Shown in pieces: positions 4,086 through 20,660 of a stretch of DNA of 64,000 bases. The translations under genes and the position numbers were made by a program. Position 1 is the stretch's first letter. Each line of letters begins with the position of its first letter. This stretch comes from Bacillota bacterium (lineage in GTDB: Bacteria; Bacillota; Sulfobacillia; JACIYH01): the NCBI GenBank assembly GCA_040757085.1, contig JBFLXJ010000033.1, positions 28,751 through 92,750 on the forward strand, written 5' to 3'. Below the pieces are notes generated by a model. The model was not told where the DNA came from, did no database searches, and saw only the letters and a program-made list of their open reading frames with translations.

Positions 4086-4173
4086 TGGTGCCGAAGGTGG
4101 GACTCGAACCCACACGGGCCTTGCGCCCACGGCGCCCTGAACACCGCGTGTCTACCTATTCCACCACTTCGGC
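4086..4173 (-). tRNA. tRNA-Leu(CAG), type II with long variable arm, CCA encoded
   Basis: The reverse complement folds as follows. Acceptor stem GCCGAAG/CTTCGGC. Anticodon stem CGGTG/CGCCG with loop TTCAGGG, giving anticodon CAG. Variable arm GGGCGCAAGGCCC. T-arm GTGGG-TTCGAGT-CCCAC. Discriminator A followed by CCA. Confidence 0.8.
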
Positions 4174-5237: not shown

Positions 5238-6100
5238 CGCATGGTCAGCCTCCCTTCCCGCTTGGCCACCCGTTCCATGTATCCCAGAGCCAGCGAGGCG
5301 GCGACCAGGTACAGTACGGCCAGGCCAGCATTGATCGCTACCTCCACCCCGGCGGGCAGGAACCCCATCCCGGCATCGCCGAATGCCAGTTGACGCAGGG
5401 CATCCAGTCCCAGGGCAAGGGGCACCACCGAGGCCAGGGCGGCCACCCAGAAGCCCAGGGCCTTCACGGGGAAGTAGAATCCCGAAAGGAGGAATACGGG
5501 CTCCTGCAGGAGGTTGGATAGGTGCCAGGCCTCCCGACCGTGCAGCAGGAAGAGGGAGGCAAACACCATGCCCAGCCCGTACAGGGCAACGAGGGTGACC
5601 AGGAAGGCGGCCAGCAGGAGGCCCAGCGCCTCTGTGCGGTACTCCACCCCGAAAGCAAGGCTGCCCAGCGCCAGCACGCCCCCCGCCCGCACCGTGGTTT
5701 GAACGATGCCGCCGAGGGCCATGCCGCCCAGGATGGACATGCGGGAGATGGGGGCGATGAAGAACAGCTCCAGTTGCCCGCTCTGCTTGTCGAAGTAGAA
5801 TGTCGACCCCATGCCCCACAGGACGTGCAACCAGTACGCGGAGATAGCCCCTCCTAACACGGCGTAGCCCACGAACACTTCCGGGGCCTGCAGGGAGCGG
5901 TAGATGTATACGTAAGCGGCCACGGCCAGGATGGGCAGGAATGTATCGAAGAACACCCATGACAACTCCCGATTGGTGCCCACCACCCGCACGTAAGCAC
6001 GACCCCACAGGGCCCGCATGTTGTCCACCAGGTAGGACGTCATGCTCGCACGGGGCAGGGCCGCTCCCGGCTGTCTCCTGTCAAGGCTCGCCCCGGGCAT
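5228..6100 (-). CDS. ABC-2 type transporter permease (first of two)
   Basis: ORF 5228..6109 is hydrophobic with an ABC-2 permease profile. I prefer the ATG at 6100, 6 nt after AGGTGA. It overlaps the 3' end of the ATPase gene. Confidence 0.6.
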   Translation of the reverse strand: MPGASLDRRQPGAALPRASMTSYLVDNMRALWGRAYVRVVGTNRELSWVFFDTFLPILAVAAYVYIYRSLQAPEVFVGYAVLGGAISAYWLHVLWGMGSTFYFDKQSGQLELFFIAPISRMSILGGMALGGIVQTTVRAGGVLALGSLAFGVEYRTEALGLLLAAFLVTLVALYGLGMVFASLFLLHGREAWHLSNLLQEPVFLLSGFYFPVKALGFWVAALASVVPLALGLDALRQLAFGDAGMGFLPAGVEVAINAGLAVLYLVAASLALGYMERVAKREGRLTMRWQ

Positions 6101-7241
6101 GGTCTTCACCTGCCGTTTCTTCCTCGAGACCCCTGCCCACCAGAGAGACGAAGACGTCCTCCAGGGTGGGTTCTTCCTTGCGGAATGCGCGCACGCGGAT
6201 GCCCGCCTCGTCCATGCGTCCCATCACGGGCACGATGGCGGCGTCCTCTGCGAGGACGAGGGTGAGTTCGCACACGCCCCGCCCCGGCACCACCCGCTGA
6301 CGGGACGACCTCACCCCCGGCCAGGCCGCAACCGTGGCCGCCAGGCGCTCGTCCGCAACCGCTTGACCATCCACCTCCAGGCGGATGACCACTTCCCGGC
6401 CCAGGGATCGCTTGAGGGCCGCCGGGGAATCGCAGGCCAGGATACGGCCCCGGTCGATGATGGCCACCCTGTCGCAGAGTTCGTCCGCTTCCGCCATGTA
6501 GTGGGTGGTGAGGAGGACGGTTCGTCCGGGGCACTCAGCAATCCACTCCCGGATAAAGCCGCGGATGGTGCGGGCTGCGTTCACGTCCAGGCCGACTGTG
6601 GGCTCGTCCAGGAAGATGACGGCGGGATCGGAGATGAATCCCCGGGCGAAATTCATCTTCTGCTTCTGGCCGGTGGACAACCGGTTGATGCGGGTGCTGG
6701 CCTTTTCCGCCAGGTCCAGCCTGGCCATGAGGGCGTCGATGCGGCGGAGGGCCTCGCGGGAAGGGATCCCGTAGAACTGGGAGAACATCCACAGGTTCTC
6801 CCGCACGGTGAGGACGTCGTATCCCACCGATTCGCCGCCGGAAACCATGTTGATCAGGCGCTTGACCGCCATCGGTTCCTTCACCACGTCATGACCGCCC
6901 ACCAGGGCGCGGCCGGACGTGGGGTAAAGCAGGGTGGCCAGGATCTTGATCAGCGTGGTCTTTCCCGCTCCGTTAGGGCCCAGCAGGCCGAATAGTTCTC
7001 CTTCCCTCACCTGGAGGTCGACCCCCTCCAGCGCCCTGATCTCTCGCACCACCCGACTCCGCCGCCCTCCTGGCCAGAACCGGCGCCCGCGGCCGCGGGC
7101 GTTACTGGCGCAGGCGCCAGCGGACGGCTCCTCCTGCGCGGCGGCCGGCGGCTTATCCTCGGCGGCGACCGGTCGCTTCTCCTTTTTCTCGCCCCGGACC
7201 TGGAAGGTGCGGGTGAGTTTCTCCGTTTCTATGGCGAGCAT
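6081..7241 (-). CDS. ABC transporter ATP-binding protein with a low-complexity N-terminal insertion
   Basis: Contains Walker A (GLLGPNGAGKTTL), the signature LSTGQKQKMNFARG, Walker B (IFLDEPTVGLD) and an H-loop (TTHYM). A strong RBS, GGGAGGTAAACC, precedes the ATG. Residues ~17-60 (KEKRPVAAEDKPPAAAQEEPSAGA...) are an insertion. Confidence 0.85.
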   Translation of the reverse strand: MLAIETEKLTRTFQVRGEKKEKRPVAAEDKPPAAAQEEPSAGACASNARGRGRRFWPGGRRSRVVREIRALEGVDLQVREGELFGLLGPNGAGKTTLIKILATLLYPTSGRALVGGHDVVKEPMAVKRLINMVSGGESVGYDVLTVRENLWMFSQFYGIPSREALRRIDALMARLDLAEKASTRINRLSTGQKQKMNFARGFISDPAVIFLDEPTVGLDVNAARTIRGFIREWIAECPGRTVLLTTHYMAEADELCDRVAIIDRGRILACDSPAALKRSLGREVVIRLEVDGQAVADERLAATVAAWPGVRSSRQRVVPGRGVCELTLVLAEDAAIVPVMGRMDEAGIRVRAFRKEEPTLEDVFVSLVGRGLEEETAGEDHARGEP

Positions 7242-7264
7242 GGTTTACCTCCCATCAGCAAGAA

Positions 7265-7288
7265 GAGAGCCGGGTTGCCCCGGCTCTC
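7265..7288 (-). terminator. terminator-like hairpin (attenuator candidate) 15 nt upstream of the ABC ATPase RBS
   Basis: GAGAGCCGGG-GCAA-CCCGGCTCTC is a perfect 10-bp stem. On the minus strand it is followed by TTCTTGCT and preceded by a TTTTT run. Confidence 0.4.
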
Positions 7289-7382
7289 CTGCAGAAAAAC
7301 GAAGACCCTCCGGCTGGAGCCAGGGCAATGCCCCTCCCGCTCCGGCCAGGGGCCCGGACAGCCTCACCTGGGCCGGGCGGAC

Positions 7383-7418
7383 CTAGATGCTGCCACCTTC
7401 CTCGCGGATTTTGAACAT
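7383..7418 (-). CDS. putative 11-codon leader peptide ORF (MFKIREEGGSI) upstream of the ABC-2 operon
   Basis: My own translation: GGGAGGAGGTG sits 6 nt upstream of an ATG, followed by 11 codons and a TAG. It lies between a sigma-A-like promoter and a terminator-like hairpin. Confidence 0.3.
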   Translation of the reverse strand: MFKIREEGGSI

Positions 7419-7451
7419 GTCCGCACCTCCTCCCGTACACGACCGTACGCG

Positions 7452-7481
7452 AGATTACCACATGCTGCCTACCAGTGTCAA
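7452..7481 (-). promoter_or_regulatory. putative sigma-A promoter (TTGACA-18-TAATCT with a TGg extended -10) for the leader and ABC-2 operon
   Basis: Minus-strand reading gives TTGACA (7481-7476), an 18-nt spacer, then TGGTAATCT (-10 at 7457-7452). It is located in the coaE to ABC intergenic region. Confidence 0.4.
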
Positions 7482-7522: not shown

Positions 7523-8143
7523 TCAGTCGCAGCGGTGGGGATGGGGCGCGTCGCGCGTGGCTTCCTGCCAGCACTGCAGCACCTGGTCGCGGGTCCGGTC
7601 CGGGGAGCCGTCGTTGTGGATGACGCGGTCGGCCAGGCGGACCTTCTCCTCGAGGGGCATCTGGGCCTGCAGGCGTGCTTCCGCCTCTTGCGGGGCAAGA
7701 CCGTTGCGCCTGCACAGGCGTTCGATCTGTTGCTGACGCGAGCAGGTCACCACCCAGACCTCGTCCACCGCGTCGCGCATACCGGCTTCCAGCAGTAAGG
7801 GCGCATCGATGACCAGGACCTCCACGCCCTGCTGGCGGGCCTGTTCCACCATCTCGCGGATGAGGCGGATGATGGAGGGATGGGTGATGGCATCCAGGTC
7901 GGCCCGAGCCTGCCGGTCGTGAAAGATGATATCCGCCAGGCGGGCGCGGTCGAGGGATCCATCGGGACGAAGGATGCCGCGCCCAAACCGCTCCGCCACC
8001 CGGGCCAGCACCGGACTGCCCGGGGCCAGCACCTCGCGCGCCACCTGGTCCGCATCCAGCACGGTGGCGCCCAACTCCCGCAACATGGCTGCCACCGTGC
8101 TCTTTCCACAGGCGATGCCCCCCGTGACTCCTATGACCAGCAG
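7523..8143 (-). CDS. coaE: dephospho-CoA kinase; the start is probably non-canonical (CTG)
   Basis: The P-loop GVTGGIACGKST is encoded in frame at 8130-8096, upstream of the first ATG/GTG at 8095. The in-frame stop TGA sits at 8161-8159. The only possible start codons upstream of the P-loop are CTG at 8143 and 8140, or ATA, with GAGGGGG/GAGGTGG just upstream. Confidence 0.7.
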   Translation of the reverse strand: MLVIGVTGGIACGKSTVAAMLRELGATVLDADQVAREVLAPGSPVLARVAERFGRGILRPDGSLDRARLADIIFHDRQARADLDAITHPSIIRLIREMVEQARQQGVEVLVIDAPLLLEAGMRDAVDEVWVVTCSRQQQIERLCRRNGLAPQEAEARLQAQMPLEEKVRLADRVIHNDGSPDRTRDQVLQCWQEATRDAPHPHRCD

Positions 8144-8165
8144 GCCACCTCGACCCCCTCACCAG

Positions 8166-9779
8166 CTACGGACCCTCGCGCCACCACCAGTCGTGGACGT
8201 TCCAGTGCCACCCGAAAGGCGACGCCACCGGGCCGGTGAGCCCCGCCCGCACGCCCAGGAAGACCCTCTCCGTCCACAGGGGGATGAAGGGAACATCCTG
8301 ACCGAGCCGGTAGGCCACCTGCTGGGTCAGGGATTTCCTCGTGGGGACGTCCAGCTCCTGCCGCAGACGGTCGAGCAGGACGTCCATAGCCGGCTCGCGG
8401 TAGGAGAATATGTTGCCGCCTCGCCCCTCGGCCGGGGTCTGGCGGGAGTGAAGGAGGGGGGTGAGGTCGGGATTGGCCGGGTAAGGCTCGGGGACCAGGG
8501 CCAGGTCGTAATCGAACGGGGGCTCAAGCCGCGCCACGAAGGCAGCAGGCTCCTCTGCGACCACCCTGACCCGGAGGCCCACCCGCCCCAGGTAGGCGGC
8601 TATGATGCGGGCAGCCTCGGCCCGGATTGGATCCCCACGCGGCAGCAGCAGGCTCAGGGGAGCGATTTCCTTCGCCCCGGCAAGCAGATCCCGCGCCCCG
8701 GCCGGGTCGTATGCTCCTGCGGGGACTTCAGCGGGATATGCCCAGGAAATGAGGGGCAGGGGGAAAACCGCCTCGCGCAGTCCGTAAACCCCACTGGCCC
8801 CCCCTGGCGCCCCGCCCGCCGTGCCGGTGGCCAACTCGCGCACCAGGGTGTGGCGGTCGATGGCCAGGGATATGGCCCGCCGCACCCCGGCATCCAGGCG
8901 GCTGCAGTTGAGAGCCAGGGCCACGTAATAAGGCTGGTGGGTCTCCAACACCCGCCATCCCCCCTGCCGCGCCCGTTCCAGGTCCGAAGGCACAACGGGA
9001 CCGGCGTCCACCTCGCCCTGGATGAGGACTCGACTCGCCCGGGCGAGGGACGGGTATATGTGCGCGACAAACCTGTCAAGGTGGGGACGCCCCCGGTGGT
9101 AGCGCAGGTGGGGAAGCAGGCCTATCTCGTCTCCCTCCCACGTGCCCAGGCGGAACGGCCCCGTCCCAACCGGGCGACGGGCGAAATCTTGCGCGGCCCC
9201 GGTACCATCAGCCAGAAGGTGCGCCGGCAGGACGGGCACGGTGGCCAGCCAATACGGGAAACCCGCATCGGGATATTTCAGGAAGAAGCGGATGGTACGG
9301 CTGTCCACCTTCTGCCAGGTAAGCCCGGGCAGAAGCTCAGGATGGGAGTGCAGGCTGAACACCACGTCGTCGGCGGTGACCGGCTGCCCGTCGTGCCACA
9401 TCGCGTCGGGGCGCAGGCGCACGGTCCAGTACACGCCTCCCCGGCCACCCACCCACCCCACGGCCAGATCCGGAAAAACCTCACCCCGGCCGTCTACCCC
9501 GGCCAGAGCAGAGAAGAGCAAACCCACCAGGACCTTTTCCGCCGGGCTGGTGGCCTCCCGGGGATCGAGGGATACCACCGGCCCCACCAGCGCCTCCCTC
9601 ACCACTCCCCCCTGGCGAACCCGCACGGCGGGCGCGGTGGTGGACGGCTCCCTCAGGCACCCCGCCCCCCACACGCCCATCAGCACGACCAGCAGCGCCA
9701 CCCCGGCCTGCCGCACGGTGGCTCGGGCCACCAGGCCCCGGCGCCCCGGCGGCCACCCGGCCCAACGAAATTCAGGCAT
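8166..9779 (-). CDS. ABC transporter substrate-binding protein, family 5 (peptide/nickel, OppA/DppA-like) lipoprotein
   Basis: Size and composition are typical of the SBP_bac_5 family. The N-terminus MPEFRW...ALLVVLMGVWGAGC looks like a signal peptide with a lipobox-like GAGC. I prefer the ATG at 9779 over 9818, which would overlap mutM. Confidence 0.65.
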   Translation of the reverse strand: MPEFRWAGWPPGRRGLVARATVRQAGVALLVVLMGVWGAGCLREPSTTAPAVRVRQGGVVREALVGPVVSLDPREATSPAEKVLVGLLFSALAGVDGRGEVFPDLAVGWVGGRGGVYWTVRLRPDAMWHDGQPVTADDVVFSLHSHPELLPGLTWQKVDSRTIRFFLKYPDAGFPYWLATVPVLPAHLLADGTGAAQDFARRPVGTGPFRLGTWEGDEIGLLPHLRYHRGRPHLDRFVAHIYPSLARASRVLIQGEVDAGPVVPSDLERARQGGWRVLETHQPYYVALALNCSRLDAGVRRAISLAIDRHTLVRELATGTAGGAPGGASGVYGLREAVFPLPLISWAYPAEVPAGAYDPAGARDLLAGAKEIAPLSLLLPRGDPIRAEAARIIAAYLGRVGLRVRVVAEEPAAFVARLEPPFDYDLALVPEPYPANPDLTPLLHSRQTPAEGRGGNIFSYREPAMDVLLDRLRQELDVPTRKSLTQQVAYRLGQDVPFIPLWTERVFLGVRAGLTGPVASPFGWHWNVHDWWWREGP

Positions 9780-15515: not shown

Positions 15516-16370
15516 CTAGTTCGACACCTCGTGCCCAACTCCTTTCCCTGCCAGCCAGAAACCTTTGTCCAGCAAGCGGATAGGTGCCTCCGGGCGAGGA
15601 GGGAAGGCACTCACCAGGACTACGGGCCCATCCGGCGCCCAGGCCAGAGCATCTTCCGCGAGGGGAAGGGTTTCCTCGGGGCAGGGACAAAGATCCGCCA
15701 GGTGCCGGGGGGTGAGGTCGCTGGTCTGGTACGGGTCGGGGAACACCACCAGGGCAGTGCCCCAACTGGCAACACTACCCACTATCCTCTCATACACTAT
15801 TCGCACCGGCATGCCCGGATATGCCCAGCGCCAGAGCAGGTGTACGTCTTCCTCGGAGAGCCTGATACATCCCCGGGAAACCGCCCGCCCGATGGAATCC
15901 GGTGCGTTGGTGCCGTGCAGGCCGTAGTCGGGCAGGTTCAGGCCCAGGAAACGGGAGCCCAGGGGATTGTCCGGGCCGGGCGGCACGGGAGGCCCGCCCT
16001 CAGGAGGGTACCAGGTGGGATGCAGCCGTCTGGTCACCACGCGGTAGATGCCGGTAGGAGTCGGCTGGGAAGGCCTGCCTATGGCCACGGGGTAACATCC
16101 CTGCAGCACCCCATCCCTCCACACCTGCACCCGCAGGGAGGGCAGGTTGAGCAGCAGGAAATCCGGCGGGAACTGGCCTGCTGTCACCAGGTGCGACCGC
16201 GGTGCGGCCGCACCAGCCGGGATACCAGCAAGACCAGCGTGGCCGGGGCCGGCCGCAGCACCGGGGCGTCCCGCTGCGGCAGCAGGGTCACAGGCGGAGG
16301 CGTTCACCGCCAGGACGATAAGACAGATGAGGATGATGAGGATGTCCTGTACTGCCCGCCTGAGTGCCAG
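15516..16370 (-). CDS. L,D-transpeptidase (YkuD domain) with a signal peptide; probable CTG start
   Basis: HGTNAPDSIGRAVSRGCIRL is the catalytic His/Cys motif. The first canonical start, GTG at 16307, would remove a clear signal peptide, ALRRAVQDILIILICLIVLAVNASAC. That peptide is in frame upstream between a TGA at 16379-16377 and the GTG. A CTG at 16370 sits behind GGGTGGAGTG. Confidence 0.65.
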   Translation of the reverse strand: MALRRAVQDILIILICLIVLAVNASACDPAAAAGRPGAAAGPGHAGLAGIPAGAAAPRSHLVTAGQFPPDFLLLNLPSLRVQVWRDGVLQGCYPVAIGRPSQPTPTGIYRVVTRRLHPTWYPPEGGPPVPPGPDNPLGSRFLGLNLPDYGLHGTNAPDSIGRAVSRGCIRLSEEDVHLLWRWAYPGMPVRIVYERIVGSVASWGTALVVFPDPYQTSDLTPRHLADLCPCPEETLPLAEDALAWAPDGPVVLVSAFPPRPEAPIRLLDKGFWLAGKGVGHEVSN

Positions 16371-16467
16371 GAGCGATCACACTCCACCCTAGCACTCTAT
16401 GCGTGCACCACCCCTCATTTCCCGCCCCATCGGGCGGGGGACCGAGGCCCCGCGCCAGCGGCGGCCG

Positions 16468-20455: not shown

Positions 20456-20509
20456 CTGCAAATGCCTGTCTGCAAATGCCTTGCGTGGGCACCACAGCTT
20501 TGCTAATAT
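20456..20509 (+). promoter_or_regulatory. putative sigma-A promoter of tRNA-Leu(CAA) (TTGCGT-17-TAATAT) preceded by an 11-nt tandem direct repeat
   Basis: CTGCAAATGCC occurs twice (20456-20466 and 20470-20480). TTGCGT is at 20481-20486, a 17-nt spacer follows, TAATAT is at 20504-20509, and the tRNA 5' end is at 20520. Confidence 0.45.
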
Positions 20510-20519
20510 AACAGGGCAA

Positions 20520-20607
20520 GCCGGAGTGCTGGAACGGGCAGACGGGTCCGCCTCAAAAGCGGATGGGGTCAATCCCCGTGTGGGTTCGATTCCCACCTCC
20601 GGCACCA
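20520..20607 (+). tRNA. tRNA-Leu(CAA), type II, CCA encoded
   Basis: Acceptor stem GCCGGAG/CTCCGGC. Anticodon stem TCCGC/GCGGA with loop CTCAAAA, giving anticodon CAA. Long variable arm. T-arm TGGGT-TCGATTC-CCACC. ACCA, then a T6 run. Confidence 0.85.
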
Positions 20608-20660
20608 TTTTTTAGAAGCATTGCAGTGCCGAATCCATGGGGGGAGGCGCACGCGGCCGG

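What the first reader, a model, noticed from the sequence alone, without database searches (positions are those of the whole stretch)
8096..8161. coaE: the P-loop is encoded upstream of the first canonical start, implying a CTG or other non-ATG/GTG/TTG initiation, or an indel
The frame of MAAMLRELGA... (ATG at 8095) continues upstream as GGRGG-LLVIGVTGGIACGKSTVAA with no intervening stop back to a TGA at 8161-8159. That 5' extension contains the essential P-loop. It has no ATG, GTG or TTG codon, only CTG CTG GTC ATA. A strong SD-like GAGGGGGTCGAGGTGG lies immediately 5' of the CTG codons. A CoaE starting at the annotated ATG would lack its Walker A motif and be inactive. The same situation occurs in the L,D-transpeptidase gene, where a signal peptide is only reachable via a CTG at 16370. 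Two instances make a sequencing error less likely and suggest real use of CTG starts in this organism.
Basis: seen in the sequence. Interest (0 to 1): 0.5.

Follow-up and report, generated by a model that had tools for sequence, protein, structure and literature searches.

The report
coaE starts at a CTG codon
The dephospho-CoA kinase gene of this uncultured Bacillota species has the rare start codon CTG where its relatives have TTG or GTG; this is a real single-base change, not a sequencing error, NCBI's annotation already uses it, and it is a tidy but ordinary example of a known phenomenon.

Summary
On the minus strand the coaE frame runs from TGA 8161-8159 through CTG CTG GTC ATA and the whole Walker A motif, with no ATG, GTG or TTG.

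The cause is a substitution, not an indel. In the nearest relatives (70-74% amino-acid identity, same polA-fpg-SBP-coaE order) the codon aligned with CTG 8143 is the start, TTG in three and GTG in three. The alignment is collinear codon by codon.

The DNA is identical in two other sequencing runs and in a strain 99.2-99.4% identical. The 15 codons after the CTG show 7 synonymous and 1 conservative change against the closest relative. Whole-gene dN/dS (0.25-0.28) matches the relatives. A strong Shine-Dalgarno sequence precedes the CTGs; GTG 8095 has none.

NCBI already lists the 206-residue product from CTG 8143 (MEW6547750.1, MFZ5768345.1).

The second case, the L,D-transpeptidase, also holds. 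A 1-nt insertion, shared with sister lineages, put the ancestral GTG out of frame, and CTG 16370 is the only route to an intact signal peptide.

About 33 other genes checked in the window have canonical starts. This is a new member of a known kind. No experiment has confirmed the start.

The parts
7523..8143 (-). coaE (dephospho-CoA kinase) coding sequence, 206 codons plus TGA, counted from the CTG start
   Evidence: TIGR00152 scores 183 bits against a cutoff of 65.55. The product is identical to NCBI protein P0234, MLVIGVTGG..., 206 aa.
8141..8143 (-). CTG, the most likely start codon. It is homologous to the TTG or GTG start of orthologues.
   Evidence: Codon alignment with L083, L084, L086 and L088; L090 and L091; PRK03333 profile position 1; it is the NCBI start.
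8138..8140 (-). Second CTG, an alternative start with better spacing from GAGGTGG
   Evidence: Register analysis: 5 nt after the AGGAGGTG-like 8-mer, within the 4-8 nt range common for other window genes. CTG1 is 2 nt after it.
8145..8160 (-). Tandem Shine-Dalgarno-like motifs, GAGGGGG and GAGGTGG
   Evidence: Duplex energy with the assumed anti-SD is -11.8 / -10.4 kcal/mol. For other window genes with a clear SD it is -9 to -14.4 (a few have little or none), and for GTG 8095 it is -3.7.
8159..8161 (-). In-frame TGA that closes the coaE frame upstream
8166..8168 (-). TAG stop of the upstream SBP_bac_5 gene, 22 nt before CTG 8143. The gap is 79-94 nt in relatives.
8099..8122 (-). Walker A / P-loop GGIACGKS, encoded upstream of the first canonical start
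8093..8095 (-). First in-frame canonical start (GTG), with no SD. It would give a kinase without a P-loop.
8084..8086 (-). ATG used by the Logan and JGI gene callers (187-aa product without a P-loop)
   Evidence: P0001 and P0235
8131..8148 (-). Out-of-frame mini-ORF GTG GCC TGC TGG TCA TAG overlapping both CTGs. Significance unknown.
   Evidence: Read from the sequence; GTG lies 5 nt after GAGGGGG; register score.
15516..16370 (-). L,D-transpeptidase (YkuD) coding sequence counted from CTG 16370, the second CTG-dependent gene
16368..16370 (-). CTG, the only near-cognate start upstream of the ldt signal peptide with a positively charged n-region. It is conserved in L086, L087 and L092.
16378..16380 (-). 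Ancestral GTG start of ldt, now one base out of frame through an extra C at 16371/16370
   Evidence: L096 and L098 read GTG ATC GCT CTG GCA in frame (MIALARAP...LVIGC). The window reads GTGATCGCTCCTGGCA.
16293..16370 (-). Predicted Sec signal peptide MALRRAVQDILIILICLIVLAVNASA (RR n-region, 13-residue hydrophobic core, ASA motif)
   Evidence: Kyte-Doolittle mean of 3.88 for ILIILICLIVLAV. Homologues P0125-P0129 carry N-terminal signal peptides.

Best explanation
coaE of this species is translated from a CTG codon. CTG 8143 is the start by homology and by NCBI's call. The adjacent CTG 8140 is an equally possible start by Shine-Dalgarno spacing.

The CTG arose from the TTG or GTG start used by the nearest relatives through a single base change at the first codon position. 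By analogy with E. coli CTG starts, initiator fMet-tRNA would read the near-cognate CUG, giving MLVIGVTGGIACGKST..., a complete dephospho-CoA kinase with its P-loop.

Initiation at CUG should be weak: 1-2% of AUG in E. coli, against 10-100% for the canonical AUG/GUG/UUG group. Three things may offset this, all inferred rather than shown:
- two strong tandem SD motifs directly upstream;
- a gap of only 22 nt from the stop of the upstream SBP gene, in the same polA-fpg-SBP-coaE gene string (co-transcription was not tested), which allows translational coupling;
- the presumably small amount of this enzyme a cell needs.

Shown here: the sequence, its reproducibility, the homology of the start position, selection on the upstream codons, and the SD. 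Inferred: that ribosomes actually start there, and the coupling.
For: - **Start position.** The codon alignment puts CTG 8143 opposite TTG (L083, L084/L092, L091) or GTG (L086, L088, L090). Every following codon is collinear, so no indel is needed.
- **Reproducibility.** The DNA is 100% identical over 5.7 and 10.7 kb in SRR29635773 and SRR32167787. The start region is identical in a 99.2-99.4% strain variant from JGI 3300032204 and SRR29054603. Two NCBI MAG proteins carry it.
- **Selection on the upstream codons.** In the 15 codons between the CTG and GTG 8095 there are 7 synonymous and 1 conservative non-synonymous difference from L083 (P = 0.0009 under neutrality). Against L086 it is 9 and 2 (P = 0.0004).
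- **No relaxed constraint.** Whole-gene dN/dS for the window against relatives is 0.25-0.28. Among the relatives it is 0.25-0.29.
- **Ribosome binding.** SD duplex energy is -11.8 kcal/mol upstream of the CTGs and -3.7 for GTG 8095.
- **Profile fit.** CoaE profiles begin at or next to the CTG.
- **Public annotation.** NCBI's product is 206 aa, MLVIGVTGG....
- **Precedent.** CUG initiates at 1-2% of AUG in E. coli (bioRxiv 10.1101/063800). CTG starts are verified for hda, yfjD and FIB rep (PMC3531124, PMC11983097).
Against: - There is no protein-level or ribosome-profiling evidence, and the organism is known only from metagenomes.
- CUG is a poor start in E. coli. An out-of-frame GTG (8148) sits at ideal spacing from the first SD and could compete for ribosomes.
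- Selection measured over a long branch cannot exclude a very recent loss of function.
- A second coaE copy elsewhere in the genome could not be looked for.
- The 3' end of the 16S rRNA used for the SD energies was assumed, not read from this genome.
Confidence: 0.8

Rival explanations
1. Sequencing or assembly indel. A base is missing or extra near the homopolymers, and the true gene starts at an in-frame canonical codon, for example GTG 8148 brought into frame.
For: GTG 8148 lies 5 nt after GAGGGGG (sequence; register score), and one extra base in GG/CC would give MALLVIGVTGG. G5 and G6 runs are nearby.
Against: Three assemblies from different runs are identical, and a second strain with 28 differences in 4.6 kb has the same start region. 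The codon alignment with six relatives needs no gap, and the start codon itself is simply C instead of T or G.
Confidence: 0.01
2. The gene is a recent pseudogene or makes an inactive kinase without a P-loop from GTG 8095 or ATG 8086. CoA synthesis would then depend on another copy or on scavenging.
For: The canonical start was lost. ATG 8086 has a weak GGTGG motif upstream (-8.3 kcal/mol). Gene callers choose it.
Against: The ORF and the P-loop are intact. dN/dS equals that of the orthologues. The upstream codons change almost only synonymously. The allele is fixed in two strains. Strong SD motifs are kept in front of the CTGs. By general knowledge, coaE is the last step of CoA synthesis and is normally essential and single-copy.
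Confidence: 0.06
3. Initiation at another near-cognate codon in the stretch, ATA 8134, giving MGVTGGIACGKST. One possible route is termination-reinitiation after the mini-ORF GTG 8148..TAG 8131, whose stop overlaps ATA (ATAG).
For: AUA initiates about as well as CUG in E. coli. The mini-ORF exists and its GTG is well placed after the first SD (sequence).
Against: ATA is 11-13 nt from the SD. It would shorten the first beta-strand to two residues before the P-loop. All six relatives start three codons further upstream. The mini-ORF is absent from the relatives.
Confidence: 0.07
4. Recoding: a programmed frameshift from GTG 8148, or from the SBP frame, into the coaE frame.
For: An out-of-frame GTG lies just upstream, both here and in ldt.
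Against: No slippery heptamer or re-pairing site is visible in GTG GCC TGC TGG or GTG ATC GCT CCT (read from the sequence). The two genes would need shifts in opposite directions. Both the SBP frame and the coaE frame carry stops.
Confidence: 0.01

Closest known systems
E. coli hda and yfjD, chromosomal genes with experimentally verified CTG start codons (EcoGene 3.0, PMC3531124)
   Same: In both, a conserved N-terminus lies upstream of the first ATG/GTG/TTG, a CTG follows a ribosome-binding site, and automatic annotation tends to pick a downstream canonical codon.
   Different: Those starts were verified by mutagenesis and protein fusions. Here the evidence is only comparative. Here the ancestral canonical codon (TTG or GTG) can also be seen in sister lineages.
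IncFIB plasmid rep gene, CTG start (PMC11983097)
   Same: A CTG start combined with a good ribosome-binding site; commonly mis-annotated at a GTG 14 codons downstream; interpreted as setting a low expression level.
   Different: For rep the CTG is conserved across the replicon family and shown to be functionally tuned. For coaE the CTG is specific to one species, and there is no evidence that the low level is selected rather than merely tolerated.
Near-cognate initiation measured for all 64 codons in E. coli (Hecht et al., bioRxiv 10.1101/063800). Translation table 11 lists CTG as a permitted start (general knowledge, not from that paper).
   Same: CUG belongs to the near-cognate group (CUG, AUA, AUC, AUU) that initiates at 1-2% of AUG. 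About 0.024% of annotated genes in model genomes use CTG.
   Different: Nothing is known about start-codon discrimination in this uncultured Bacillota lineage.
Typical CoaE (TIGR00152 / PF01121), e.g. M. tuberculosis MLRIGLTGGIGAGKS and E. coli MRYIVALTGGIGSGKS (both N-termini quoted from memory)
   Same: The same architecture: Met, two to five residues, then the beta-strand and P-loop. M-L-V-I-G-V-T-G-G fits exactly.
   Different: Only the start codon differs.

Membership tests
Dephospho-CoA kinase CoaE (TIGR00152 / PF01121) | Full-length profile match above the curated cutoff | tested here: met
   TIGR00152 scores 183 bits against a cutoff of 65.55, with profile positions 1-186 of 188 aligned.
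Dephospho-CoA kinase CoaE (TIGR00152 / PF01121) | N-terminal Walker A motif GxxxxGK[ST] | tested here: met
   GGIACGKS at 8122-8099. It is present only if translation starts upstream of GTG 8095.
Dephospho-CoA kinase CoaE (TIGR00152 / PF01121) | Kinase activity on dephospho-CoA | not testable with these tools
   Needs an enzyme assay or complementation.
Bacterial genes with a CTG (near-cognate) start codon | A conserved, required N-terminal segment lies upstream of every in-frame ATG/GTG/TTG and downstream of an in-frame stop | tested here: met
Bacterial genes with a CTG (near-cognate) start codon | The CTG sits at the position of the start codon of orthologues | tested here: met
   TTG or GTG in six relatives aligns with CTG 8143.
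Bacterial genes with a CTG (near-cognate) start codon | A ribosome-binding site at workable spacing | tested here: met
   GAGGTGG and GAGGGGG, -10.4 to -11.8 kcal/mol, spacing 2-5 nt in the 8-mer register. The anti-SD sequence was assumed.
Bacterial genes with a CTG (near-cognate) start codon | The sequence is genuine, not an error | tested here: met
   Four further datasets covering two strains, plus two NCBI MAG protein records whose product starts at this CTG.
Bacterial genes with a CTG (near-cognate) start codon | N-terminus or initiation site demonstrated experimentally | not testable with these tools
   No proteomics or ribosome profiling is available.
Pseudogene | Relaxed selection, or disruptions of the frame | tested here: not met
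   dN/dS is 0.25-0.28, the same as among orthologues. The ORF is intact, and the upstream codons show pS 0.55 against pN 0.03.
Programmed ribosomal frameshift | A slippery site allowing tRNA re-pairing in the new frame, with conservation of the shift site | tested here: not met
   No such site is visible between GTG 8148 and CTG 8143, or between GTG 16380 and CTG 16370 (sequence inspection).

The most novel reading that the evidence does not exclude
This uncultured high-G+C Bacillota clade tolerates CTG initiation far more than model bacteria do. Two of about 45 genes in 64 kb depend on it, against about 0.024% of annotated genes in model genomes. The two cases arose independently: a TTG-to-CTG substitution in coaE, and a frameshifting insertion that handed ldt initiation to a CTG, which has been kept across lineages about 25% diverged in DNA. 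If so, start-codon discrimination (IF3, or the 16S P-site) would be relaxed in this lineage, and gene callers limited to ATG/GTG/TTG would truncate many of its proteins.
Probability: 0.12. Interest if true: 0.6.

Novelty: new member of a known kind. Interest (0 to 1): 0.22.

Why it matters
The main value is for annotation.
- Gene callers restricted to ATG/GTG/TTG (the Logan and JGI calls here) produce a 187-aa CoaE without its ATP-binding loop. NCBI gives a 223-aa L,D-transpeptidase with no signal peptide. Both would mislead metabolic and localisation inference.
- The case is a clean natural example of start-codon turnover among NTG codons. Sister lineages use TTG, GTG and CTG at one homologous position.
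- The ldt case shows a frameshift being rescued by a near-cognate start.

Neither case changes what is known about bacterial initiation unless CTG use proves to be systematically higher in this clade.

Tried and rejected
- **Exact-protein look-ups that failed.** The 190-aa GTG-start CoaE and the neighbouring ABC ATPase found nothing. The species was reached only through the homologue search.
- **Genome-contig scan with CoaE.** It returned only relatives at 53% identity or less.
- **Suspected parallel cases in relatives.** P0018 (184 aa) and P0012 (198 aa) looked like further missing-start cases. The DNA shows ordinary GTG and TTG starts that the gene callers skipped.
- **Metagenome scan for the conserved ldt leader.** It gave one useful locus (L098) and one chance hit (L097).
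- **HMM check of about 33 other window genes.** It found no further gene needing a non-canonical start.
- **Rfam.** Only two tRNA-Leu genes matched.
- **Rejected explanations.** Indel or sequencing error, programmed frameshift, and fusion with the SBP gene (stops in both frames).

Full report
**1. What is in the sequence**

On the minus strand the coaE frame reads TGA(8161-8159) GGG GGT CGA GGT GGC CTG(8143) CTG(8140) GTC ATA GGA GTC ACG GGG GGC ATC GCC TGT GGA AAG AGC ACG GTG(8095) GCA GCC ATG(8086).

- There is no in-frame ATG, GTG or TTG between the TGA and 8095.
- The Walker A motif GGIACGKS (8122-8099) lies entirely in that stretch.
- The upstream SBP_bac_5 gene stops at TAG 8168-8166, 22 nt before the first CTG.
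- TIGR00152 (CoaE) matches at 183 bits (cutoff 65.55) with profile position 1 at V 8137. PRK03333 position 1 aligns at CTG 8143.
- A 21-codon stretch with no start is common in this 67% G+C DNA. The signal is the conserved N-terminus, not the gap.

**2. Is the DNA right?**

The exact 187-aa product called from ATG 8086 is on record from two Logan assemblies, SRR32167787 and SRR29635773. Their contigs are 100% identical to the window over 10,745 and 5,751 bases, covering both coaE and ldt.

A variant product (P0235) comes from JGI metagenome 3300032204 and from SRR29054603. Those contigs are 99.4% and 99.2% identical to the window (28 and 8 mismatches), so they represent another strain. The start region is identical to the base.

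A sequencing or assembly indel is therefore excluded.

**3. What do the orthologues do?**

The nearest relatives are 70-74% identical in protein and share the gene order YkuD, ECF sigma, anti-sigma, polA, fpg, SBP_bac_5, coaE. Their products begin MLVIGLTGG or MRVIGLTGG.

| Start codon | Loci |
|---|---|
| TTG | L083, L084/L092, L091 |
| GTG | L086, L088, L090 |
| CTG | window |

The start codons were read. The codon alignment is collinear from that codon onward, and the window has CTG exactly there. One base substitution at the first codon position explains the finding.

Two relatives that looked like parallel cases (P0018, 184 aa; P0012, 198 aa) turned out to be gene-caller choices. Canonical starts are present in their DNA.

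**4. Is the upstream part translated?**

- Between the CTG and GTG 8095, the window differs from L083 by 7 synonymous changes and 1 conservative change (V/L). That gives pS 0.55 against pN 0.03, P = 0.0009 under neutrality.
- Against L086 the counts are 9 and 2 (P = 0.0004).
- Whole-gene dN/dS for the window against relatives is 0.25-0.28. Among the relatives it is 0.25-0.29, and it is similar for neighbouring genes.
- The region before the CTGs pairs with the assumed anti-SD at -11.8 / -10.4 kcal/mol. That is within the -9 to -14.4 range of the window genes that have a clear SD. GTG 8095 gives -3.7.
- By homology the start is CTG 8143. By SD register the second CTG (8140) is better spaced. 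I cannot separate the two.

**5. Public annotation**

The protein cluster contains a 206-aa NCBI member, MLVIGVTGGIACGKST... (MEW6547750.1 and MFZ5768345.1, "MAG: dephospho-CoA kinase [Bacillota bacterium]", contig 126,452 bases). NCBI's annotation therefore already starts the gene at CTG 8143. The Logan and JGI callers give the 187-aa product without a P-loop.

**6. Mechanism**

Shown: the points in sections 1-5.

Inferred:
- fMet-tRNA initiates on CUG. In E. coli CUG works at 1-2% of AUG, and the canonical AUG/GUG/UUG group at 10-100% (bioRxiv 10.1101/063800). The change probably lowered initiation several-fold.
- The two SD motifs, and an intergenic gap of 22 nt against 79-94 nt in relatives, may compensate through coupling with the SBP gene.
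- By general knowledge, CoaE is probably needed only in small amounts.

Verified precedents are E. coli hda and yfjD (PMC3531124) and the FIB rep gene (PMC11983097). The latter paper also quotes 0.024% of annotated genes as CTG-started.

**7. The second gene, ldt**

The frame reads TGA(16379) TCG CTC CTG(16370) GCA CTC AGG CGG ... GTG(16307). From the CTG it encodes MALRRAVQDILIILICLIVLAVNASA|C. This has an RR n-region, a 13-residue core with mean hydropathy 3.88, and an ASA motif.

- GTG 16307 has no SD (-1.5 kcal/mol). The CTG has GGGTGGAG upstream (-9.8), at a long spacing of 11 nt.
- Homologues in other lineages carry N-terminal signal peptides.
- L096 and L098 read GTG ATC GCT CTG GCA CGC... 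= MIALARAPTLPL..LVIGC, in frame behind the same conserved leader GCATAGAGTGCTAGGGCGGAGT.
- The window reads GTGATCGCTC**C**TGGCA. One extra C puts that GTG (16380) out of frame.
- L086, L087 and L092 carry the same +1 state (GTGATCCTCCCTGGCA) and keep CTG GCA STC AGG CGG.

So the ancestral GTG was displaced by an old, real 1-nt insertion. The CTG immediately after it is the only route to the signal peptide in the window. This also accounts for the long SD spacing. NCBI annotates this gene from GTG 16187 (223 aa) with no signal peptide, which is probably a truncation.

**8. How general is it?**

Stop-to-stop translations of 30 other window ORFs (about 33 genes counting those judged by eye) were scanned against NCBIfam. 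Wherever a profile reaches its N-terminus, a canonical start lies at or upstream of it. Two CTG-dependent genes in about 45 is more than the quoted 0.024%. But the sample is small and was selected by a reader looking for oddities.

**9. Verdict**

For coaE the indel reading is rejected. This is another instance of a known, rare kind of start codon, and the public annotation already adopts it for coaE. The ldt case is not yet annotated and has a neat evolutionary explanation. Interest is low to moderate. It would rise only if a genome-wide survey showed systematically higher CTG use in this clade.

Noticed in passing
window 16290-16400 (-); L096 205-340; L098 9015-9200; L086 1385-1520: ldt lost its ancestral GTG start through a 1-nt insertion (extra C at 16371/16370) shared with sister lineages. 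CTG 16370 directly after the insertion is the only route to an intact Sec signal peptide. Lineages L096 and L098 keep the in-frame GTG and a lipoprotein signal (LVIGC).
   Followed up: yes
window 16185-16187 (-): NCBI's product for ldt (P0121, 223 aa) starts at GTG 16187. The Logan call (263 aa) starts at GTG 16307. Both lack the signal peptide that an extracytoplasmic L,D-transpeptidase needs, so both are probably truncated annotations.
   Followed up: partly
window 7383-7481 (-): Directly after the coaE stop lies a promoter-like TTGACA-18-TAATCT with TGg (7481-7452). It is followed by a strong SD, gggaggaggtg (7433-7423), and an 11-codon ORF from ATG 7418 to TAG 7383 (MFKIREEGGSI). This sits ahead of a G+C-rich stretch and the DrrA-like ABC ATPase gene (6081-7241). 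It may be a leader peptide or attenuator for the transporter.
   Followed up: no
window 7259-7342: All four independent short-read contigs of this species end at 7342 (L082, L089) or 7259 (L094, L095). Relatives carry type IV pilus genes after coaE, whereas the window has an ABC-2 transporter. This looks like a synteny and assembly break just 3' of coaE.
   Followed up: no
window 8131-8148 (-): An out-of-frame mini-ORF, GTG GCC TGC TGG TCA TAG (MACWS*), overlaps both CTG codons. Its GTG is 5 nt after GAGGGGG, and its stop overlaps ATA 8134. It could compete with coaE initiation or feed reinitiation.
   Followed up: partly
L092 vs L086 (coaE at L092 9042-9644 and L086 10001-10603; SBP at L092 7271-8962 and L086 8215-9906): These two relatives are 98-99% identical in protein for polA, fpg, sigma and anti-sigma. 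They are only 84% identical in CoaE and 91% in the SBP, and they use different coaE start codons (TTG vs GTG). This suggests local recombination at this spot.
   Followed up: no
L090 1100-1200 (JGI Ga0080004_1104928): The intergenic region is deleted, so the SBP ORF runs over the coaE start. The JGI caller then began coaE at the internal GTG (184 aa, no P-loop), although GTG CGG GTA ATC GGG is in frame upstream. CoaE calls without a P-loop are a recurring gene-caller artefact in this clade.
   Followed up: yes
window 20520-20607 (+) and 4086-4173 (-): tRNA-Leu(CAA) and tRNA-Leu(CAG). The stretch around the first (window 20499-20613) is 91% identical to L086 751-863, which explains an isolated conserved block outside the syntenic genes.
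   Followed up: partly
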